64,000 nucleotides of DNA, taken from assembly GCA_951406725.2 (NCBI GenBank), contig OX597817.1:89156001-89220000 (forward strand), read 5' to 3'. Position numbers and translations under genes: made by a program. Position 1 is the stretch's first letter, and the number at the start of each line of letters is the position of its first letter. The DNA comes from Octopus vulgaris (Eukaryota). This document shows, one piece after another, positions 1,745 to 63,156 of this stretch. The notes under the pieces are model-generated. The model searched no databases. It was not told where the DNA came from and saw only the letters and a list, made by a program, of their open reading frames with translations.

Positions 1745-2000
1745 TCGAAGAAATTCTTAGTTACCAGTGGTCTAGTGAGAAGGAAAAAATTAGTCAATAG
1801 ACTATATATTATTCAGAGAAGAATACAGTGTACATTCAAACAAAAACAGATACCCAAAAATAGGATATCTGACTCACTAGAAAGAGCAGTTAAACTCCAA
1901 GGTAAAAGTTTTTATTTTTCAATCACTTTCGAAATTACAACAATTAGTGAGTTGGAGTTTAACTGCTCTTTCTAGTGAGTCAGATATCCTATTATTTGGG
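1745..2000. repeat. Penelope pLTR-like segment with a ~48-bp near-perfect inverted repeat
   Basis: 1852-1900 is the reverse complement of 1951-2000. 1760-1845 resembles 49560-49635, and 1900-1925 resembles 9318-9341 and 49690-49712. It lies directly upstream of the Penelope RT fragment. Confidence 0.6.
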
Positions 2001-2027: not shown

Positions 2028-3741
2028 GCAATGGGTTCTATGGATTCGGTAAGTTAAAGTTGTTGATTTGGGGAACAAACCATATATTTTTCTCTACAAT
2101 AGAGAAATTCGAAATAGTATATGTTTATATAGAAGGATGATGCACTTTTTACAATTGTAAACACATCTAGTAAAATGTTGGAAAAATACAGAATGGAATT
2201 GTTTAGGTTCTTTAAAAAGGTAGGCCTATCTATAACGGTAGATGTTGAACATGATTTTGTTAACTTCTTAAATGTTACGTTGGAGATTAAACATGGAATT
2301 TACAAACACTTTCATAAACCCAATGAAAACATAAAATATATAAATATTGGAAGTAATCATCTAAATCAGTAACAAACTCACTTATAAAGACCATTTCGTC
2401 TAGAATAACAAATTGTTGATAACCGGGTTAAAATTTCTCGTAGTGCTAATGGAAATGAGGATGTAGTATTTTCTAATAAAATCTCAAATTCTTTCAATAT
2501 AAAATCTGTTAAAATATTCAAAGATAAAAATAAAAGTAAAATAAACGCTAAAAAAAGAATGGATTGAAATCAGAGAATACTTACTCTTTCGAAAAACGGG
2601 TATAAACATCAAAATTATGATCTTAACTCGAAGAATACTTTATGGTCAATCGTTCCAGTTGGTAAACAGATCAATTACAATTTTTCCAAATTGTTTAAAA
2701 TAGCAATCCAAAAGTATTTTCCAAGAAACCACAGATGTTAGAAAATTTTTAGTGGGCATAAGGTTAGATTGGGTTGTCTTAGTCGTAATATTGCGCAAAT
2801 TATAGTAACACCCAATAGTAAAATAATATCGAAATTTCAAAAAAAGCAATTACAATCAGAATAGTGTAATAAATTCGAAACATAATAACTGATTTTTTAG
2901 ATTTACTATAAAGGTAATGACAAAGACAGGACATTCAAAGGTGTCGGGGGAACGAATGAGATGACAAGATTAAACATTTATGATGATATATAAAATTGAA
3001 TGATGATGATGATGATGAAGTGAGGGACGGGCACGACCCCACCAACCACGTTCCTCCACTGATCCCTTTAAGAGAATTTTGTTCTCCCTTAAGCAGGTAC
3101 ATCCACTCTCAACATGCTAGCCGCTTTCTTCCATCATTTCTTATAAGTACTAAGTGGCAAGCGTCTCCTCTCCAGCATTATTTTCCTTTTAAGATGGAAA
3201 ATAAAAAATTTCGTAGCATAATAACATCAAACGGAATAAAGAAACTCAAAAAGAAGAGAATGTGGAAAGGGAAAGAACCTAATTTAACATAGATAATGAC
3301 GTCAATTCGAATAAAAGTTTAGCTAGAATAGAACAAAGATAACGTTATCTAAAGGAGTAAATAGTAATACCGAACTTGGTGAAAATGAATTTAATTCTGC
3401 AATCAATGATCAAATTGAAAGCAAATCTGACGGAAATATAAAATGATATCTTTGCAATTGTTCTAAACGTGAAAAATAAGTGTAAAACTAAAAATGTAAT
3501 ATATAGATGTATAGTTACATCTGAAGGTAGGGAATTCCTTTACATCGGTGGGGCATCATTAATTTTCAAGAGGAGACCGGCAAATCATTTGAGTTCATTT
3601 AGAGACAAAAATAAAAGGTTCCTAACCAGTCTTAGTAAATTAATCTGGTCTTTCAAGGACAGTAACAAGGACTATACGATTAAATGGGAGTTAATTTGTA
3701 CTACAAAACCATACAGATCTGGAACCAATAGATGTGACCTA
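2028..3741 (+). pseudogene. Penelope-like retroelement (YRDD, Naiad-like) RT C-terminus plus GIY-YIG endonuclease, disrupted
   Basis: AMGS..DS..VVDLG; frameshifted YR/DD at ~2127-2142; VNFLNVTL..YKHFHKPN..YINIGSNH; KYFPRNH; CNC..C..KNVIYRC..LYIG..FKRR..NH..IKW..CDL. Many stops and frameshifts. Confidence 0.85.
2890..3216 (-). mobile_element. 5'-truncated Tx1/L1-clade LINE 3' end inserted in the Penelope
   Basis: The minus strand reads FHLKRKIMLERRRLPLSTYKK*WKKAASMLRVD, similar to the ORF2 end at 62760-62860. It is flanked by the direct repeat cataataac (2881-2889 and 3217-3225) and is absent from the paralogous segment at ~4710-4720. Confidence 0.65.
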
Positions 3742-4122
3742 TACTCTTTATTCTTTTACTTCTTTCAGTCATTTGACTGCGGCCATGCTGGAGTACCGCC
3801 TTTAATCGAGCAATTCGACCCCGGGACTTATTCTTTTGTAAGCCCAGTACTTATTCTATCGGTCTCTTTTGCCGAACCGCTAAGTAACGGGGACATAAAC
3901 ACACCAGCGTCGGTTGTCAAGCAATGCTAGAGGGACAAACGCAGACACACAAACACACACACGCATATATATATATATATACGACGGGTTTCTTTCAGTT
4001 TCCGTCTACCAAATCCACTCACAAGGCTTTGGTCGGCCCAAGGCTATAGTAGAAGACACTTGCCCATGGTGCCACGCAGTGGAACTGAACTCGGAACCAT
4101 GTGGTTGGTAAACAAGCTACTT
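3742..4122 (-). mobile_element. tRNA-derived SINE (duplicated copy, lacks the extreme 5' head)
   Basis: Reverse complement of the 19725-20122 family; interrupts the Penelope endonuclease at CDL. Confidence 0.9.
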
Positions 4123-4391
4123 TATTTCATTAAATTTGCCACTAGGGCAGTACACAGATGAGTAGCTGCGGGCTGGACAAAAAACACATTAATGCGGTGA
4201 GGATGATAATGATGAACGAAAATGGGAGGGGCACTGGCGCCCGCCGACCAATAACCCCTCGAATACAAAGTTTCTTTATACTAAAAATTCTTTACAAAAA
4301 ATTTCACAACAAAAATTCCTACAGCAAAAAATTTTCTTATAATTCTCTTTGTCAGGTCCCCAAAATTAATTGACCTGCCGCCTGCAGACAA
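4123..4391 (-). mobile_element. Duplicated 3' end of the ORF1-only Tx1-like element
   Basis: Near-identical to 5740-6011. Confidence 0.85.
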
Positions 4392-5341
4392 TCAGAGAAT
4401 ACTTACTCCTTTGAAAAACAAAACAGGTATAAACATCAAAATTATGATCTTAACTTGAAAGAATACTTTATGGTTAATTGTTCCATTTGGTAAACAGGTC
4501 AATTACAATTTTTCCAAATTGTTTAATATAGCAATTCAAAGATATTTTCCAAGAAACCACAAATATTACAAAATTTTTAATCGACATAAGATTAGATTGG
4601 GTTATTGCCTTAGCTGTAATATTGCACAAATTATAGCAGCACATAATGTTAAAATAATATCGAAATTTCAAAAAAGCGATTGCAATCAGAATTGTGTAAT
4701 AAATTCAAAGCATAATAACATTAAATGGAATCAAGAAACTCAAATAGTAGGGAATGCTAAGAATGTAAATGTCGTGGAAAAGGAAGCAATGCAATTTAGC
4801 ATAAATAATGTCAAATCAAATAAAAATTCAGCTAGGTTAACCTAGGGTGAGAGTGCAGATACTTGCCCAAGGTGCAACAAAGTGCAACTGAAACTGAAAC
4901 CATGTCGTTGGAAAGTAAACTTCTTTAGATAACAAAGATAACGTTATCTAAAGGAGTAAATAGTAATACCGAACTTGGTGAAAATGAATTTAATTCTGCA
5001 ATCAATGATCAAATTGAAAGCAAATCTGACGGAAATATAAAATGATATCTTTGCAATTGTTCTAAACGTGAAAAATAAGTGTAAAACTAAAAATGTAATA
5101 TATAGATGTATAGTTACATCTGAAGGTAGGGAATTCCTTTACATCGGTGGGGCATCATTAATTTTCAAGAGGAGACCGGCAAATCATTTGAGTTCATTTA
5201 GAGACAAAAATAAAAGGTTCCTAACCAGTCTTAGTAAATTAATCTGGTCTTTCAAGGACAGTAACAAGGACTATACGATTAAATGGGAGTTAATTTGTAC
5301 TACAAAACCATACAGATCTGGAACCAATAGATGTGACCTAT
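4390..5341 (+). pseudogene. Second Penelope-like fragment (linker plus GIY-YIG)
   Basis: ORF 4519-4845 (RYFPRNHKYYKIFNRHKIRLGYCLSCNIAQII) and ORF from 5068 (NVIYRC..LYIG..RCDL). Short SINE-head remnant at ~4845-4925. Confidence 0.85.
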
Positions 5342-5739: not shown

Positions 5740-7926
5740 TATTTCATTAAATTTGCCACTAGGGCAGTACACAGATGAGTAGCTGCGGGCTGGACAAAAA
5801 ACACATTAATGCGGTGAGGATGATAATGATGAACAAAAAATGGGAGGGGCACTGGCACCCGCCGACCAATAGCCCCTCAAATACAAAGTTTCTTTATACT
5901 AAAAATTCTTTACAAAAATTTTCAACAACAAAAATTCCTACAGCAAAAAATTTTCTTATAATTCTCTTTGTCAGGTCCCCAGAATTAATTGACCTGCCGC
6001 CTGCAGACAACTCCGCAATGACAGGTCAGGACCTGAAAACAGAAAAGCGAATTCTTTCTTGTCAAAGGTCAATGCGACCTTTGACAAAGTTTTTTCCGTA
6101 ACCGCCTCCGCAGCCACCTGCGGAGGCCAATTCGGACAGCTTGAGCAGAACGAGTACATTCGTCCTAGTTCGCCCAAGCTGTCCAGAAATTTATTAACCT
6201 TCCCTCCCTCGCGATAAAGGAGGACAACCGTCTCCTCTTTACGGGAAGGTACTTCATGCTGCTCCGTCAGTGGCACACTTCCCACTGACGGAGCCCTCTC
6301 CGCAGGTGGCACACATCCCACCTGCGACTCCGTCTGCGACCCATGAACATCAGCCGCCCGACCTCTATTTCTCTTTCTCCTCCTTTTTTGGGGGGAGACT
6401 GCTGGCTCAGGGGGCTCCGTCAGCAGACATGGGGGGTCGCTATCCCCCTCCGCCACCGGAGCATTCTTTGCTCACCTGTCTTTTTCTTTTCGTGGGGGCA
6501 ACTTCCTCCACGACTTCCACCGTCTCCCCCTCCAATGAGGGGGTGGCGGGCACCTTTTCCCTTTCATGCTCCGGGTCACCACCACGGCCCCCGGGACAGT
6601 TCCTCTTGATATGTCCAGGCTCCAGGTACAGGTGACACTTGGGGGGTGGGGCGTCCCTCGAGTATCACCGGGTACCTGTGCCCGGCCATTCTCAGGAAGT
6701 CTGGGAATATCATCTCTCCCACGGCCACCGGGGTCCACAGGGTCAAAGTTGCTTTTGACCCCTCCCAGGCGACCGCGGGAGTCATTTTTACACTCAGTAG
6801 CCTGGGCCCGCTATCCCCCAGGCCTCGCCGGATGGTCTCCTCGATCCATCCCGCTTCCGTGCCCGGGGGCAGCCCGCAAACCCAGGCTCTTTTTATTTTC
6901 CTGCCACAATACGAGGGGAGGAACAAAATCTCCTCTCCCTCAAGGGGCTCGCTAGCAAATCTGCTAGCTTCCTCGGGGGTACCAAACAGCAACCACACCG
7001 TTGCAAATTTAGTCCCCCGAGAAATAAACTTTATAGTTGGCAGGTGGTCTGCCAACTCTTTTTCTATTGTGCTCTTGTCGAATAGGTTCGTATTACCACC
7101 GTCCTCTTCTCAAGATCTTTAATCCACTGCTTGGGTGGGACAACCTCCCACTCCAAAGCAGTGGCTTCATTTTTCTTTGCCATGTAACAGAAAGTTCAAA
7201 GTTCAAATAAAGTTCGATAGATTTTTGAAAAAATAAGGAAGATACAAAAAGGAGAAGCACAACAGAAGGGAAGAAATGAACAGAAAATCACAATAAACAA
7301 AAAAACAAACAAAAAGAGAAGTTAAATAAAGTTCAAAATAAAGTCAATAACACAGCAAAAAACACAGCAAAAATCTTCTGGCCATCCGGTACTCCCGGCC
7401 TAAGTTGAACCCAGGAACACCGCGACTGGAACAGCTTTCACCAAATTGTTATAAAATTGGTATAAAATACAATTCTCACAATACAATTCTCACAACTAGG
7501 TGAGAAAAACATTCACTCAAAAACGCAGGCGAATACGCCCCTCAAAAATTCTCACTCCTGGCCGTCCAATGGTAAAATAAATCTTATCGCAGCACAATTA
7601 GTCCCTTCTACCTTGGTACTCCGTGGTAAATCCAGTGGGAAAACACAAAGACAATTCATTTTTGCGGAGGGACTACGCCTCTTCAAAAACACAATTCTCA
7701 CTACAAAGTGAGTCTTTACGCTCGACCACAGGCAGGAAAATGTCTGGAGCAGAGTGGAGTCTATTACTCACCAAAAAATATTAAATACAGGGCAACAAAC
7801 TCCACTAAGCCCTCAAAAAAATACAACAAACGCCTACCTGTAGTCGTGCTTCCAAAATGTTCAATTTTCACGTCGCAAGGCGTGACTTTCAAGCTGCATG
7901 AAAAATGCAAACTCTTCTGTCAGTGA
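5740..7926 (-). mobile_element. Full-length ORF1-only (HAL1-like) Tx1/L1-clade non-LTR element
   Basis: 16-bp TSD ggta(g/a)acaagctactt at 5724-5739 and 7927-7942; minus-strand 3' end terminates in AATAAA; ~740-nt 5' UTR; gag-like ORF1; no RT or endonuclease. Confidence 0.75.
5971..7183 (-). pseudogene. Gag-like ORF1 (RRM-like region plus CCHC knuckle), frameshifted
   Basis: ATG at 7183 (MAKKNEATALEWEV..); ORF 6576-7055 (..WVCGLPPG..YPVILEGRP); knuckle KCHLYLEPGHIKRNCP at ~6593-6640 with the second C changed to Y; basic, low-complexity C-terminus in ORF 5971-6456. Confidence 0.7.
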
Positions 7927-8899: not shown

Positions 8900-9025
8900 A
8901 ACCACTCTCTTCCTTCTCTGAGTGTCTTATTAATACTTTGTATGTGCTACGTCCTCATGTTGTTGTTTTTTCTTGACTTGTTTTCCCCGTTTTTTGATTA
9001 ATTAATTAATTCATTCATTCATTCC

Positions 9026-9100
<75 letters not shown>

Positions 9101-9124
9101 TATATCTAAGGGAAAATATATATG

Positions 9125-9390
9125 GTAGGAAAATTATAGAAATTTTTCTACCAGTGGCCTAGCATGCTGCCGACAAAAACTGCGCTTGATGAGACATGTG
9201 CTGTTTGGCCTCATAATTATATGTTAATCTTTGGCGTACTCGCTGATGAGAATTTCGCCTAGCAAATTATTATTTTTGCTAACTAAAGTTCGAAACCATG
9301 GTCCGGTAATAAAATATGGTAAATGTTTTTATTTTTCATTCCCTTCGAAATGACCCCTAACCGTGGTTTGGATTTTGACTGCTCCTTCTA
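9125..9390 (+). repeat. Penelope pLTR-like solo repeat containing a hammerhead (9237-9308)
   Basis: CTGATGA 9243-9249; long stem II (GAATTT/AAGTTC and TAGCAAA/TTTGCTA); GAAA 9292-9295; palindromic ACCATGGT; GTC cleavage site. Homologous to 49190-49905; (TA)n on both sides. Confidence 0.7.
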
Positions 9391-9440
9391 GCATGTTAGG
9401 TGACCTGTTAGGGCCACCTCTTCAGTGTTTAAAAGCATAC

Positions 9441-9528
<88 letters not shown>

Positions 9529-16341: not shown

Positions 16342-17579
16342 TTGGGTTGGCAACTAAATTCTCGCGTTTTTTTTTTAATTTTGGAATTTATTGCGTATTC
16401 AAATTTTGGAATCTATTTTTTTCGAGAATTCTATTTTTGAATCATTTTGGAATCTATTTTGTTTTTTGTTTTTTTCTAGTTGATTTTAGTTAATTTTTGT
16501 TTATTTTCAGATCATTAAAATGGAATGTCAAGTTAAGAAAAACGAGCATTTTCGACACCTCCTTCTTTTTTGCTTTTAATCAAGGTTCTAAGGCCGTAAA
16601 AGCTGCTCGTGACAATTGTGCTGTGTATGGAGAAGGTGCCATAGCTGAAAGAACCGGTCGTGATTGGTATGCCAAGTTCAAAAATAGAAATTTTAACCTC
16701 AAAGACGCACGTAGTTCTGGCCGTCCAGCTGAGTTCGATGAACAGCGATTAAACCAACTTTTGCACGAAAATTCTCGTCAAACGACACGGGAACTGGCAG
16801 AGAAAATGGAATGCTTCCACACTGCTATAGAGAATCATCTTTATTCAAAGGGAAAGGTTCAGAAGTATGGAGCATGGCTTCCGCATGCTTTAAGTGACAA
16901 AACAAAAATAAATGAGCCACAATCTCCGCTAGTTTGCTTGCTCGTCACCGCTCAACTCATGGACACAAACAACGATTTCTTTACCGAATCGTTACTGGTG
17001 ACGAAAAATGGTGCCTGTACATCAATATGAAGCGGCGTAAGGAATGGCTTAGCCCCGGTAAACAAGCGACACGATGTTGTGCGTATGGAGGGACTGGGAA
17101 GGGATTATCCATTACGAATTGCTTGAACGGAACCAAACGGTCAATGCGGAACGACTCAACACAGCTATTCAAGAGAAAAGACCTAATCTCCGCTGGTTTG
17201 CTTGCTCGTCACCGCCATCCCTCAATATGACCAATATGACCAAGGAAGCCATTCAAACGCATGGCTGGGAAGTTCTGCCACACCCGCCGTACTCTCCTGA
17301 TTTGGAATCAAACAGATTTCCACCTCTTTCGATCTCTTTCAAATGCTATGCGCGGAGCTTCGTTCAATACTGATGCAGAATTGAAAGCTTGGTTGGATCA
17401 ATTTTCCGAGTCGAAATCGGGTGATTTTTACCAACGAGGTATTGAAAATCCTGTTGAACGTTGGGAGGATACATTATTGGGTGAATACATTATTGATTAA
17501 TTAGTTGTTATTCTTTTTATTAAACCTTAAAAAAAATTTAAATTAAAAAAGAACGGCGGGAACTTAGTTGCCAACGTAA
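16342..17579 (+). mobile_element. Mariner transposon, full length, frameshifted transposase
   Basis: TIRs ttgggttggcaactaa.. / ..ttagttgccaacgtaa; HTH (R.W..KFK..LKD..RSGRP), GAWLPH, IVTGDEKW, HPPYSPDL, DFHLFRSL, YQRGI..RWE. Confidence 0.95.
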
Positions 17580-30050: not shown

Positions 30051-30467
30051 ATATATATATAATATGAAATGGGATACATGGAAACTATATAGAATCTGTC
30101 GTATGAACTGTACCTGTAGTTCAATGTCCCAACCTCACACTGATTCTATCTGTGAATTATGTTAAGGGTGCAAGTGTCTGTGGAATACACACATGAAAAT
30201 TCAATGATTAGGTCATTCAGCCGATCGAACAAACTGGAGGCTCTTATGCTGAGAGCAACATAAGAGTTCATCGCATAAGCGCGCGCACACAACACACGCA
30301 TTTGCACCTGCGAATACACACAAACACACACGCATATCTAATATATTTAACTATTTGTATATCCCTCTCTCTTTCTCTCTCTATATATACATACATACGT
30401 ACACACACATATATATACATTGTGCATGAGGTGTGTATGTACATATACATGTATATATATGTGCATG

Positions 30468-30536
<69 letters not shown>

Positions 30537-30818
30537 CAACAATTGAGGGTAAAATTAATTAATTATTAATCAATTTCACCAAGTATTCAGTATGCAAAGG
30601 GACCATTTAAGGCGAATTCAAATTATTACATTATATAAAAGGGCTTAGTAAAATAAATTACTTTGCCACATACTGAACTCATTAGAAATAGTAGCTAAAA
30701 AAAACTTTTTAAAAACTATTTCTAATACTTAAAGAAAATCTCTCTCATATAGTGTTTGCTCAACTCAACTCACGAAAGTATGGGGGTAAAGACATTAAAA
30801 AATCAAATGCAAAGGTTA

Positions 30819-30874
30819 TTTGAGAACGTACGTTTCTAGATTAGTCAACTCGACATTTCTATCATCAGCTCAGA
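30819..30874 (-). ncRNA. Type I hammerhead ribozyme, copy 1
   Basis: Reverse complement of 31601-31656. Confidence 0.75.
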
Positions 30875-31378
30875 ACTCCTTGGTTTGGATTTGAAAACAC
30901 TGAAAGTGGGAGCATACCCTTTCGGCTTCTTATCGCTTCTGAAGATCTGCTCGAAACTAACAGTGCCAGCAAACTCAAAATATGCAAGCGAAGAATTTCT
31001 GCTCTCCCCTTTCCACCAGCGTGGGTTAAAATCAGCAAACACTATGCTTTTTCGGTAAAATCCGAAGCATTAAATAGAGAGAGATGAATTATAATTTCAA
31101 CAATTGAGGGTAAAATTAATTAATTATTAATCAATTTCACCAAGTATTCAGTATGCAAAGGGACCATTTAAGGCGAATTCAAATTATTACATTATATAAA
31201 AGGGCTTAGTAAAATAAATTACTTTGCCACATACTGAACTCATTAGAAATAGTAGCTAAAAAAACTTTTTTAAAACTATTTCTAATACTTAAAGAAAATC
31301 TCTCTCATATAGTGTTTGCTCAACTCAACTCACGAAAGTATGGGGGTAAAGACATTAAAAAATCAAATGCAAAGGTTA

Positions 31379-31434
31379 TTTGAGAACGTACGTTTCTAGA
31401 TTAGTCAACTCGACATTTCTATCATCAGCTCAGA
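31379..31434 (-). ncRNA. Type I hammerhead ribozyme, copy 2
   Basis: Identical to copy 1, 560 nt away on the same strand. Confidence 0.75.
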
Positions 31435-31600
31435 ACTCCTTGATTTTAACCCACGCTGGTGGAAAGGGGAGAGCAGAAATTCTTCGCTTGCATATTTTGA
31501 GTTTGCTGGCACTGTTAGTTTCGAGCAGATCTTCAGAAGCGATAAGAAGCCGAAAGGGTATGCTCCCACTTTCAGTGTTTTCAAATCCAAACCAAGGAGT

Positions 31601-31656
31601 TCTGAGCTGATGATAGAAATGTCGAGTTGACTAATCTAGAAACGTACGTTCTCAAA
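31601..31656 (+). ncRNA. Type I hammerhead ribozyme, copy 3
   Basis: Stem I TGAG/CTCA; CTGATGA 31607-31613; stem II TAGA..GTC gagtt GAC..TCTA; GAAA 31639-31642; palindromic ACGTACGT stem III; GTT cleavage triplet. Confidence 0.75.
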
Positions 31657-31835
31657 TAACCTTTGCATTTGATTTTTTAATGTCTTTACCCCCATACTTT
31701 CGTGAGTTGAGTTGAGCAAACACTATATGAGAGAGATTTTCTTTAAGTATTAGAAATAGTTTTAAAAAAGTTTTTTTAGCTACTATTTCTAATGAGTTCA
31801 GTATGTGGCAAAGTAATTTATTTTACTAAGCCCTT

Positions 31836-31907
<72 letters not shown>

Positions 31908-49187: not shown

Positions 49188-49901
49188 ACAGGCAGTTTTT
49201 ACACGCTAGAAGAAGTAGTCAAAACGACTAAAACTACATTTAAGAGCTATTTTCAAAAGGAATGAAAATATAAACGTTTACCTTGTTATTTTAATACAGT
49301 TAGATCTAGGTTTCAAAATTTGTTTAGCAAATAAAATAATTTGCTAGGTGAATCTCTCATCAGTAGCCACGCCATAATACTAACATATAATTAAGAGACG
49401 AATAACACGTGTCTCATCGTTATATATTATAATTTTTGAAATTTACCGCGTAAGCGCAGTTTCAGTCGGCAGTAAATGAATAAATGCCGAACTAATCCTT
49501 TAAAAAAATTGCTAAATAGACGTAAAATATCGGGTAGTGAGTTTTTTTTTTAGAAATTTCACTACCAGTGGCCTAGCATGTATAAAAAGTCAATAGACAA
49601 TATATTCTCAATATAAAATAATGTACATTTAAACACATTTTGTTTGCTAAAATGATTTTGAAACCTAGGTCTGACTATTAAAATAAAAGTTAAACGTTTT
49701 TATTTTTCATTCTTTTTGAAGATTGCTCTTAAATGTGGTTTTGGTCGTTTTGACTACTTTTCCTAGTGTCTAAAAACTGCCTGCTGAAGGCAGTTTTCTC
49801 TTGTGTTTACATGTACACTATTTCATATTGAGAATATGTTGTCTATTTTATACATGCTAGGTCACTGGTAGTGAAATTTCTAAAAAAAACTCACTACCCT
49901 A

Positions 49902-49908
<7 letters not shown>
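49188..49908. repeat. Penelope pLTR-like composite with two inverted-repeat pairs and a hammerhead (49297-49369, -)
   Basis: 49188-49338 is inverted to 49637-49783; 49524-49636 is inverted to 49803-49908. Minus-strand CTGATGAG..TAGCAAAT/ATTTGCTA..GAAACCTAGATC; the + copy retains GAAACCTAGGTC. Confidence 0.7.
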
Positions 49909-60402: not shown

Positions 60403-63156
60403 AGAGTGAACTAGTTAAGAGGGCGATGTCAGAGGCAATAATCAACAAGAAATGGTGGATCGCCCTGAAAAGGGCTTTCAAAATAGAATCGATTAAGGTT
60501 AGCAAAGGTCTAGCAGTAGAAAGAAACAGTAGAGGCAGGGCTTGTCAAAAAGTTAGACGAGGATTTTAGAAAAGGCATCGTGACTGACTTGCTCGCAGCG
60601 AGATTAGTAATCGACCAATTCTTAAACGCGAAACAAAAAGGTTGCGTTGTCAGACCTAACGCACGAGCACTTATATATACGAAGTGACGAAAGCCGTTCA
60701 ATGGGCCCGATTGGTAGAGACACGACCTGGCAATAAATCCACGATCCGACATTTACCGGACCACGACGGGCAAATGATAACTGATCGAAGACAAAATGTG
60801 TTCAGCCATTCAGCGACGCTTCGCGCAACTGTTCGGGAGCAGCGGTGAGCCGAGTCGCAGGATGAATTTCAGTCCTACCTAGAAGGACTGCAGCGGCTTT
60901 CGGCGACGGAGGCGGGGCGCTGCGAAAAGCTGATAACAGCCTTAGAAATAGAGGCAATGACTAGCTGCACAAAGATAAATAGCGTGGTTTAGATGGTCTC
61001 CCCTACGGGCTTTACGCTTACATGTCGGACTTGTTCGTTGACTTCTTAGGAAACGTTTACAGCAACTGGTAACAGAATGGGAGAATTTTCAGCTTTGTCA
61101 GCCGAGGAGCGGTGGGTTTGCTGAGAAAAGACCCAAACAAGGAGGAATGTATTGACAACTTTAGGACCATAGCACTGCTGAATACAGAGTTCAAACTTTT
61201 GGTCAAGGTGTTAGCTGGGGCTTGACGTCGGGGATCTGGTAGGGGAGGCACAGACATGTGTCATCCCGAAAAGATCCATCCACGACAACCCTCACCTCCT
61301 GCGATACATCACTGAGGGGCTGGATTGCTGCAATGCACAGCGACATCTGTTCAGTGGTCAGAGTGAGCGGTCACCTCTCAGAGCCGTTCAATATCGTGCG
61401 CTCAGTCCGGCAAGGTTGCCCTCCTCTCGTCTCTCTTGTATGTACTGAATTTCGAGCCACTACTACACAAACTGGTGGCGTTGAGAGGTATCTGTGTGAC
61501 CAAGGATGTGGGAGATGTATGTCGGCATATGCCGACGAATATGCCGACGACGTCACCATTATGGTGTCGGATCACAAACACATAGACATAATCGTCACCG
61601 CTCTCAAGGACTACGAGGCGTTTTCAGGAGCGACGATTAAACAGGAAAAATCAGTGGGCTTGCGGCTCGGCACCTGCAGAAGCAAGTCCATGCTGTTCAA
61701 CTGCGTCGTTGGAAGCTGGACGGACGGACCGGTTAAATTGCTCGGAGTCTGGCTCGGTTCGGACTTCCAGATGGATAAAAACTGGGACGAGGTAACGAGC
61801 AAGGTGACTACTCTCGCTCAGAAACGAACCGAGGGAAAGCTATCCCTGAAAGGTTGGGCAGAGGTGGCTGATGCGTATATCGCGTCCGTCATCTACTATC
61901 GCTTGACGGTTGTGTCTTGTTCTGGCCACCGTCTGATTACTTCGGAGCGTATACTCTTCCGCTTCTTGTGGAAGGGACGCGTCCCAATGGTCAGGTGGTT
62001 TTCTTTTGTCAACACCCACTGAGTGATGACCTGGGCATGCCGTGGTTGATGATGCGCAGATATGCGCTGAGGCCACGACACCTCCAGTGCTTTATTGACA
62101 GTGGTCGTCGTTCGCCAAACGTATTTCCGCAGCTAGTTTCTTTAACGGAGCTGCAGTCTTAGGTAAAACAAAGATCGGGTGGGGAGCATTGGGAAAGTGG
62201 AATGTCTTCAAGCGCTCACAGCCCTCAGCCAATCAGACACTGCGATAGGTGGGACTTCCACTCTAGCTTTTTATAGAGGATTAGTAGACGAAAAATGCAA
62301 CGATGTTCTTATGGCGTCGAAGAAGATCAAACTGGCTGCTCTTTTCCGGAGAACTTTCGGCTCGGGAAAATTTCCAAAAATCTCTGGCCTGGCAATGTTA
62401 CCGGGGAGCTTTGCCTGTTTGAGATAAACTTTACAGGCACAGAAGTACCTTTACAGGCACAGAAGTACCTTTACAGGCACAGAAGCGAGCATGTCCTAGA
62501 TGCGTGCAGGAGACGGTCCTGTGTGCACTCGTCCAGTAGCCGAGCATTGCTGACCTATGAGTTTATGTCGAACAACTGCTGTCGCATGTGGAACGGATCC
62601 GACTGTCAACTGACTCCATTGTGAAGATCACCCCGCTGCCTTCCTTTAAGCGGGAAGGAAAGGCTGTGTTTATATACCTGGTGGCTCTGGCAAAAGAGAT
62701 TGCATGCTGGACGAGATTGAGGGGCTGAAGACAAACACTTTTCACTTCGGCTAATTCATGATCAACTTGAATAAGAAAATAAGAGCAAAGAGAGAAGTGT
62801 TGTCTTCTGGCCAGTTTGCTGAAAGGTAGTTGAAAGTGGCGAGAATGGTGCGAGTGAACGGCCCTGCCCTGAGCATGCCTATAGTTGGAAAAAGGAGGAA
62901 AGAAAAAAAGGCACCTGCCCCAAAGGTCAGGGTACCCATGATTTTTTTATGTGTTTTTTCCATGAGCAGCCCTTGAACTTCTCCCTATCCAAGGCTATAT
63001 ATTGTTGATTTCTTTTTTAAAAAATAATTTTGTTTAGTCACGTTTACACGCAAAACTCACAACACCCACTCACACACATACACATACATCTTTGTGTTGT
63101 CCTGTAGTGTCTATAATGGTTTTCTTAATGTGAACACATGTAATTAATAAAGAAAT
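60403..63156 (+). pseudogene. Tx1/L1-clade LINE ORF2 (reverse transcriptase), 5'-truncated and disrupted
   Basis: GLDGLPY, DNFRTIALLNTEFKLLVKVLA, RSVRQGCP, AYADDVT, VKLLGVW, LSLKG, LFRFLWKG, LGMP; AATAAA at ~63146; part of the RT is deleted near 61310. Confidence 0.9.

What the first reader, a model, noticed from the sequence alone, without database searches (positions are those of the whole stretch)
30533..31845. Young non-coding, self-cleaving retroelement: ~560-nt hammerhead unit in tandem plus inverted arrangement (candidate cephalopod retrozyme or circRNA source)
Seen: two identical hammerhead motifs 560 nt apart on the minus strand and a third in an inverted copy on the plus strand. There is no meaningful ORF, the copies are near-identical, and (TA)n lies on both flanks. 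Stem III is the 8-nt palindrome ACGTACGT. Known: Penelope-like elements carry minimal type-I hammerheads with palindromic stem III that act as dimers, and they leave tandem or inverted pLTRs. Metazoan non-LTR retrozymes are tandem hammerhead units processed to circular RNA. Inference: a minus-strand transcript would be cut twice, releasing an exact ~560-nt monomer that could circularise and be copied by a Penelope RT. The unit is longer than typical animal retrozymes, and stem II closes with an unusual U-A pair.
Basis: partly seen in the sequence, partly recalled or inferred. Interest (0 to 1): 0.8.

Follow-up and report, generated by a model that had tools for sequence, protein, structure and literature searches.

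The report
Hammerhead retrozyme, Penelope-style insertion, likely octopus
A 560-base non-coding repeat carrying a predicted self-cutting RNA motif sits here as one and a half tandem copies plus an inverted copy inside a TA microsatellite of what is likely an octopus genome; it belongs to a very abundant family and is likely a "retrozyme" copied by a Penelope-type jumping gene, a known kind of element that I did not find described for cephalopods.

Summary
Observation confirmed. Three identical type I hammerheads lie in a 561-nt unit (A, minus), a 349-nt upstream tandem partial (B, minus) and a 396-nt inverted partial (C, plus), inside (TA)n. There is no coding signal.

The family is abundant: 20 runs under 5 organism labels hold it. 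In four laid runs its sequence closes on itself: one contig bridges the head-to-tail junction by 41+48 nt, and 0-7% of laid contigs run on into unlike DNA. This favours a fixed non-autonomous unit (non-LTR retrozyme) over a truncated autonomous element. The monomer folds strongly (z -6.1), and the B+A RNA is predicted to reach a double hammerhead 2 kcal/mol above its MFE.

Corrections:
- Read-through from the right flank would bury one hammerhead in a duplex with antisense C, so this locus is a poor circle source.
- The U-A stem II closure is a minority allele; U·U is commoner and has an axolotl precedent.
- 560 nt lies within published sizes.

Cleavage, expression, circularity and the partner reverse transcriptase are untested. 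New member of a known kind. Its value is a Penelope-type insertion footprint with both 3' ends at the unit's only TATAA motifs.

The parts
30443..30532 (.). Left (TA)n tract; likely half of the target microsatellite
   Evidence: TRF; sequence
30533..31093 (-). Copy A: one full 561-nt unit; its 3' end abuts the left (TA)n and its first six bases are TATAAT
30821..30872 (-). Type I hammerhead in A: core 30868-30862, stem II 30861-30837, palindrome 30833-30826, predicted cut after 30825
31093..31094 (-). Head-to-tail junction between B's 3' end and A's 5' end; also present in independent runs
   Evidence: table 8, X8 record 20 spans 31053-31141
31094..31442 (-). Copy B: 5'-truncated tandem partial (unit positions 212-561) with the same 3' end as A
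31381..31432 (-). Type I hammerhead in B: core at 31428, palindrome 31393-31386, predicted cut after 31385
30825..31384 (-). Predicted 560-nt hammerhead-to-hammerhead monomer; circular MFE -150.2 kcal/mol, z -6.1
31441..31442 (.). Inversion junction joining the 5' ends of B and C; 2 nt shared exactly, 5 of 6 nt alike
31441..31836 (+). Copy C: inverted 5'-truncated partial (unit positions 60-456); its 3' end lies at the unit's second TATAA motif (ambiguous to 31845)
31603..31654 (+). Type I hammerhead in C: core at 31607, predicted cut after 31650
31837..31901 (.). Right (TA)n tract; likely the other half of the target

Best explanation
This is one recent insertion of an abundant, non-coding 560-nt hammerhead unit that is likely a non-LTR retrozyme, likely copied into a (TA)n microsatellite by the reverse transcriptase-endonuclease of a Penelope-like element that I did not find. 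SHOWN: the anatomy, the three identical hammerhead motifs, the lack of coding signal, the abundance, and the fixed head-to-tail junction in other samples. PREDICTED: in a tandem transcript the two palindromes pair and the double hammerhead is 2 kcal/mol above the MFE. INFERRED from axolotl and mussel retrozymes: cutting after GUU would free a 560-nt monomer that a host RtcB-type ligase closes into a circle (about 0.5 that the family does this today). INFERRED from the footprint: the enzyme nicked both strands of (TA)n and primed two cDNAs at internal RNA sites, each beside a UAUAA motif that can pair with the target. One cDNA ran 910 nt, past a full unit (A then B), so its template was a circle or a multimer. 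The other ran 396 nt on the opposite strand (C). Their truncated 5' ends were joined at a 2-nt microhomology. PREDICTED: this copy is a poor source of new circles, because read-through makes a hairpin of about 400 bp that buries one hammerhead.
For: Motif beyond chance: 0 of 20000 shuffles. Family: 20 of 24 listed runs hold the unit, from 9 studies and 5 organism labels. Laying 30887-31446 gave 11768, 3307, 654 and 43 contigs in X1, X3, X8 and X9; the share running on into unlike sequence was 0, 0, 0.01 and 0.07, and all 30 bins were covered in each run. The junction is bridged by 41+48 nt in X8 record 20, and more weakly (17-23 nt on the short side) in X1 record 4, X3 record 14 and X9 record 27. 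Fold: monomer z -6.1 against 60 shuffles. Of 40 listed variants, three predicted pairs vary on both sides to valid pairs (permutation P 0.009), and 10 break a pair against 17 expected (P 0.008). None of the 40 falls in CUGAUGA, GAAA, the palindrome or the GUU. Dimer: palindrome pairing probability 0.94 in B+A RNA. One event: all three copies carry the allele at 31324 that is 3% or less of depth in X1 and X3. Footprint: a partial tandem plus an adjacent inverted 5'-truncated copy and microsatellite bias are the described PLE signature (PMC8557442). PLE RT primes internally and extends both strands (PMC11167929). TATAA occurs twice in the unit (positions 1 and 459), and both 3' ends lie there. 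Retrozymes as PLE derivatives: bioRxiv 10.64898/2026.07.22.740005.
Against: No genome was held, so I could not look for an ORF-bearing relative or count copies. Logan contigs of such repeats are short, 236 loose ends and 52 variant rows were not shown, and only one contig meets the tool's 31-nt bridging rule. Rfam finds no hammerhead. The motif lacks the conserved G10.1-C11.1 pair (PMC4209133), and its U17 can pair with A14: the unconstrained MFE shows this 10-bp, presumably inactive, stem III, and the crossed stem I pairs have only 0.05-0.19 probability. Eight of nine Xenopus dimers tested did not cut, and the PAc hammerhead was dispensable for insertion in vitro. The fold is about as good in the junction-to-junction linear phase (z -5.5) as hammerhead-to-hammerhead (z -6.7), so it does not prove a circle. 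Linkage of the two-sided variants is not shown, and one pair has unmatched frequencies (0.5% and 37% in X1). A differs from B and C at two homopolymer sites, which fits a linear multimer template at least as well as a circle. In PAc, RT starts at a site not homologous to the target, unlike the pairing I infer from only two ends.
Confidence: 0.72

Rival explanations
1. Truncated insertion of an autonomous Penelope-like element: A, B and C are pseudo-LTR pieces whose ORF was never reached because of 5' truncation (solo pLTR).
For: The layout (partial tandem, inverted truncated copy, microsatellite target) is exactly that of autonomous PLE insertions. Paired hammerheads 100-700 bp apart on opposite strands were ascribed to truncated PLEs in Schistosoma (PMC4209133). 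The palindromic dimer-type hammerhead is typical of PLEs.
Against: The head-to-tail junction recurs in other runs, whereas a random truncation point would be private to this locus. Almost no contigs leave the unit for unlike sequence. No PLE protein similarity: 150 GIY-YIG PLE-type proteins gave a best E of 0.088 on the element against 3e-31 on the control, though these are mostly endonuclease fragments of one clade.
Confidence: 0.15
2. Non-autonomous PLE parasite with a vestigial ribozyme: the unit spreads from uncut linear multimer transcripts by internal priming, and neither cleavage nor a circle is needed. (This shares the mobilisation step with the best explanation.)
For: GUU triplet with competing A14-U17 pairing; U·U majority at the base of stem II; PAc hammerhead mutants still insert; 8 of 9 Xenopus dimers inactive; A differs from B and C.
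Against: No listed variant touches the catalytic core in four runs despite up to 10-15% divergence (40 of 92 rows seen). The U·U-closed axolotl hammerhead cuts and yields circles. GUU is listed among active NUH sites (PMC3138052).
Confidence: 0.25
3. DNA-level product: a satellite-like local duplication, or an assembly fold-back artefact for the inverted arm.
For: The specific B/C inversion joint was not among the 7 joints listed in four runs. No reads from this individual were examined.
Against: C is not a mirror of B: it holds about 150 nt that B lacks, and the arms are 142 nt apart (I2). The two flanks beyond the microsatellites are unrelated. A and B share one 3' end, and the tandem junction exists in other samples.
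Confidence: 0.06

Closest known systems
Metazoan non-LTR retrozymes (Cervera and de la Pena 2020, PMC7229834; read: parts 2-4 of 6; supplement not readable), especially axolotl Rtz_353 / HHR_Amex2
   Same: Non-coding tandem unit, one type I hammerhead per unit, GC under 50% (33.6%), strongly self-paired monomer with the hammerhead left free, 2-bp stem III with a tetraloop, U·U at the base of stem II in the majority allele, dimer-type cleavage.
   Different: 560 nt against 170-400 nt; GUU triplet; short stem I and long stem II as in PLE minimal hammerheads; seen here with an inverted partner in (TA)n (the words inverted and microsatellite do not occur in that paper's main text); no cleavage or circle shown; cephalopods not mentioned in its main text.
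Non-LTR retrozymes as non-autonomous PLE derivatives (Li, Clavereau and Pollet, bioRxiv 10.64898/2026.07.22.740005; read: parts 1-3 of 5; supplements closed)
   Same: Tandem hammerhead units of 51-972 bp derived from pLTRs; mostly short arrays.
   Different: No molluscs sampled. They leave open whether units move by PLE machinery or expand locally; this locus shows a PLE-type insertion footprint. I could not show homology to a parent pLTR.
Canonical EN+ Penelope-like elements (Penelope/Poseidon, Neptune, Nematis; PMC8557442 passages, PMC4209133 parts 1-2 of 4, PMC11167929 parts 1-2 of 4)
   Same: Hammerhead with palindromic stem III, partial tandem, adjacent inverted 5'-truncated copy, AT-rich or microsatellite target, internal RT start sites.
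   Different: No RT or GIY-YIG ORF; the two 3' ends are about 105 nt apart rather than a 30-40 nt tail; no G10.1-C11.1 pair; the ends coincide with target-like TATAA motifs.

Membership tests
Non-LTR retrozyme | Type I hammerhead in each unit | tested here: met
   Descriptor match in all 3 of 3 copies; not recognised by Rfam
Non-LTR retrozyme | At least two consecutive tandem units with complete hammerheads | tested here: met
   Two complete motifs 560 nt apart, though B is a partial unit (1.6 units); junction present in other runs
Non-LTR retrozyme | No protein-coding capacity | tested here: met
Non-LTR retrozyme | Low GC and a highly self-paired monomer with accessible hammerhead | tested here: met
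   GC 33.6%, circular MFE z -6.1, stems I and II formed in the MFE
Non-LTR retrozyme | Self-cleavage, at least as a dimer | not testable with these tools
   Only a folding prediction
Non-LTR retrozyme | Expressed as linear and circular monomer RNA | not testable with these tools
   The runs laid were contigs, which cannot show ends, strand or level of an RNA
Non-LTR retrozyme | Absence of LTR, PBS and PPT | not tested
   No dedicated search was run
Non-LTR retrozyme | Family is not merely the terminus of ORF-bearing copies | tested here: inconclusive
   Few exits to unlike sequence and a recurring junction, but no genome held
Autonomous EN+ Penelope-like element | Single ORF with RT and GIY-YIG endonuclease | tested here: not met
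Autonomous EN+ Penelope-like element | Partial tandem with adjacent inverted 5'-truncated copy | tested here: met
   against the description in PMC8557442
Autonomous EN+ Penelope-like element | 30-40 nt tail between two RT start sites | tested here: inconclusive
   Two different 3' ends exist but lie about 105 nt apart; one locus only
PLE minimal hammerhead | G10.1-C11.1 pair after an unpaired base at the foot of stem II | tested here: not met
   U-A here, U·U in the majority allele (feature from PMC4209133)
PLE minimal hammerhead | Palindromic stem III / loop 3 | tested here: met

The most novel reading that the evidence does not exclude
A major, unrecognised repeat of octopus genomes is a ribozyme-made 560-nt RNA circle. 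A Penelope enzyme copies it by rolling-circle target-primed reverse transcription, priming on both target strands at two UAUAA motifs that pair with nicked (TA)n. Double-primed insertions such as this one silence themselves by forming long hairpins, feeding the dsRNA and editing pathways. This would be direct genomic evidence for the long-proposed but unproven step in the retrozyme life cycle.
Probability: 0.3. Interest if true: 0.65.

Novelty: new member of a known kind. Interest (0 to 1): 0.4.

Why it matters
Animal retrozymes are established, so the kind is not new. Two things give this one value. First, I found no cephalopod retrozyme in print (searches; text look-ups). The supplements of PMC7229834 and the 2026 preprint, and Repbase and Dfam, could not be seen and may list it. 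The family is abundant under several organism labels. Second, how retrozymes reach new loci is still a hypothesis in both main papers. This locus carries a PLE-type insertion footprint with no ORF, and its abundance makes the priming rule and the circle-versus-multimer question testable from existing assemblies.

Tried and rejected
No genome held, so no copy count and no search for an autonomous partner.

Rfam: no hammerhead match; the 8 matches at E up to 10 were far below gathering score and treated as chance.

Pattern scans found 0 matches: metagenome contigs, viral contigs, genome contigs. The first pattern carried the minority stem II allele.

Protein searches with two element frames and the neighbouring GIY-YIG fragment found nothing; the tool calls this weak evidence.

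The window's own decayed PLE (about 2100-5340) as partner: no DNA similarity to the unit and no protein similarity of 150 relatives. Not supported, not excluded.

The BLAST hit at 8994-9096 was rejected as (TA)n and AT-rich chance. The second hammerhead fragment at 9106-9444 is not alignable to the unit beyond shuffles.

Expression: no RNA holder listed; X9 is only guessed to be RNA, so its 43 contigs are not counted as expression. Runs X21-X24 with shares near 0 were not used.

Summed contig depth was not used as a copy number, because overlapping contigs inflate it. A depth step at C's 3' end was looked for and was not consistent between runs.

ARAGORN found no tRNA gene; promoter unknown.

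Host: the cluster look-up gave no names. 'Octopus' rests on my recall of the SINE-like repeat that recurs in the window (15 BLAST rows) and is untested.

Lunse et al. (PMC5785218) was not held and is known to me only through a review passage. PMC8967140 and PMC10886601 (passages) held nothing on this element. Earlier scan notes had no look-alike by sequence or place.

Full report
OBSERVATION. A descriptor search found three identical type I hammerhead motifs, with cores at -31428, -30868 and +31607. The predicted cuts follow GUU at -31385 and -30825, 560 nt apart, and at +31650. In 20000 shuffles of the unit, 14 matched the descriptor and none matched it with a palindromic stem III. Rfam did not recognise the motif at either threshold, and the isolated motif folds no better than shuffles. 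The call therefore rests on the conserved core, the palindrome and the context.

ANATOMY. From left to right: (TA)n; copy A, 30533-31093, minus, a full 561-nt unit; copy B, 31094-31442, minus, unit positions 212-561; copy C, 31441-31836, plus, unit positions 60-456; (TA)n. A and B share one 3' end. B and C meet 5' to 5' over two shared bases. B and C are identical in their overlap, and A differs from both at two homopolymer positions. All three carry an allele at 31324 that makes up 3% or less of depth in runs X1 and X3, though 72% in X8, so they likely came from one event. TATAA occurs twice in the unit, at positions 1 and 459, and the two insertion ends lie at these two sites. No reading frame has a credible relative. 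The host is probably an octopus, but this rests on my recall of a SINE-like repeat in the window and was not tested (one search gave no names).

FAMILY. No genome was held. Twenty of 24 listed sequencing runs hold the unit, from 9 studies and organism labels A-E. I laid one rotated unit, 30887-31446, on 4 of these 20 runs. The runs gave 11768, 3307, 654 and 43 contigs, with all 30 bins covered in each. In X1, 3107 contigs were 99% or more alike, 5296 were 95-99%, 3081 were 90-95% and 284 were lower, so the family has young and older members. The share that ran on into unlike sequence was 0, 0, 0.01 and 0.07. The 'goes back 560' joint is only the continuity inside A and is not tandem evidence by itself, but with the junction it closes the sequence into a ring. 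Most of the 24 loose ends shown read as variants of the unit; a few are foreign, including one of 255 nt in X9, and 236 were not shown. This favours a fixed non-autonomous unit and does not exclude rarer ORF-bearing relatives, which the model needs.

RNA STRUCTURE. The 560-nt monomer folded as a circle gives -150.2 kcal/mol against -111.3 +/- 6.4 for 60 shuffles (z -6.1; the opposite strand gave -5.2). Stems I and II of the hammerhead are formed. Of the 40 variant rows shown (of 92), 14 are unpaired, 13 keep the pair and 13 break it. Three pairs vary on both sides to valid pairs, which leaves 10 uncompensated breaks against 17 expected (P 0.009 and 0.008). Linkage is not shown, and one of the three has unmatched frequencies. 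No shown variant hits the catalytic core. The linear junction-to-junction phase folds nearly as well (z -5.5 against -6.7), so structure alone does not indicate a circle. In B+A RNA the palindromes pair with probability 0.94 and the double hammerhead costs 2.0 kcal/mol, but the MFE extends stem III through A14-U17, a weakness of the GUU site. The stem II closure is U-A here, but U·U in 75%, 70%, 64% and 47% of depth in the four runs. The axolotl HHR_Amex2 has such a U·U and cuts, better as a dimer (PMC7229834). When antisense C is included, as in any read-through from the right flank, A's hammerhead is buried and the double hammerhead costs 301 kcal/mol (equilibrium folding only). This locus is therefore a dead-end or hairpin-producing copy unless transcription starts within the few bases upstream of B's ribozyme.

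MECHANISM. Source loci elsewhere with tandem units are likely transcribed (promoter unknown). Dimeric hammerheads would cut, and the monomer would be ligated, as shown for axolotl and mussel retrozymes with RtcB in vitro. A Penelope-like RT-endonuclease, which nicks AT-rich DNA, extends both strands and starts inside the RNA (PMC11167929), likely primed two cDNAs from the (TA)n target. One ran 1.6 units, which needs a circle or a multimer; the other made C. The layout matches the PLE signature described in PMC8557442. Confidence: non-autonomous PLE-mobilised unit about 0.8; present-day cleavage and circle about 0.5; priming by pairing at UAUAA about 0.4, since it rests on two ends and PAc primes without homology.

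RIVALS. A solo pseudo-LTR of an autonomous element (0.15) has the same layout but should not give a recurring junction with few exits. A vestigial ribozyme with spread from uncut multimers (0.25, overlapping with the best explanation in its mobilisation step) is supported by 8 of 9 inactive Xenopus dimers and the dispensable PAc ribozyme. An artefact or local duplication (0.06) is unlikely because C is not a mirror of B, though this inversion joint was not seen in the four runs.

KNOWN KINDS. It works like a metazoan non-LTR retrozyme and meets the sequence-level criteria that I could test; cleavage and circular RNA are untested. It is not an autonomous PLE, having no ORF. Its length is outside the 170-400 nt of PMC7229834 but inside the 51-972 bp of the 2026 preprint. 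Five full-text searches and two text look-ups showed no cephalopod retrozyme. The supplements of both main papers and the repeat databases were not visible and may bear on this. Earlier notes of this scan describe similar layouts in other genomes; they are unchecked leads.

VERDICT. A real feature and a new member of a known kind, interest 0.4.

Noticed in passing
window 9106-9444 (+), core near 9244: A second, unrelated hammerhead between two (TA)n tracts: G-C-closed 6-bp stem II with a long inner hairpin, palindromic stem III and GUC triplet; more canonical than the one in the finding. Likely another pLTR or retrozyme family.
   Followed up: partly
window 49201-49418 (-) and 1901-1975 (+): Decayed relatives of the second hammerhead fragment (75% and 79% alike). 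The 49-kb copy keeps the core motifs. The 1.9-kb piece lacks them and lies just upstream of the decayed PLE ORF, which may link that family to it.
   Followed up: partly
window about 2100-3740 and 4400-5340 (+): Decayed Penelope-like ORF pieces, with a GIY-YIG frame duplicated 1599 nt apart together with a following SINE-like repeat (Pfam GIY-YIG E 0.002; 2160 relatives).
   Followed up: partly
window about 49530-49908: Short element with long terminal inverted repeats (MITE-like); about 30 nt of its arm matches the start of the 9106-9444 fragment.
   Followed up: no
joint 31435 to 30941 in X8 and X9: A subfamily in which 65 nt upstream of the hammerhead are replaced by 49 other letters, implying a unit about 16 nt shorter.
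   Followed up: no
joint 31166 to 31441 in X3: One contig with an opposite-strand joint, a second possible inverted insertion of this family.
   Followed up: no
window 16494-17030 (+), 61243-62022 (+), 6576-7109 (-): Mariner transposase fragment (HTH_48, E 6e-11), non-LTR RT remnant (RVT_1, E 6e-5), and an unassigned 177-aa frame with no Pfam match in a GC-richer stretch.
   Followed up: no
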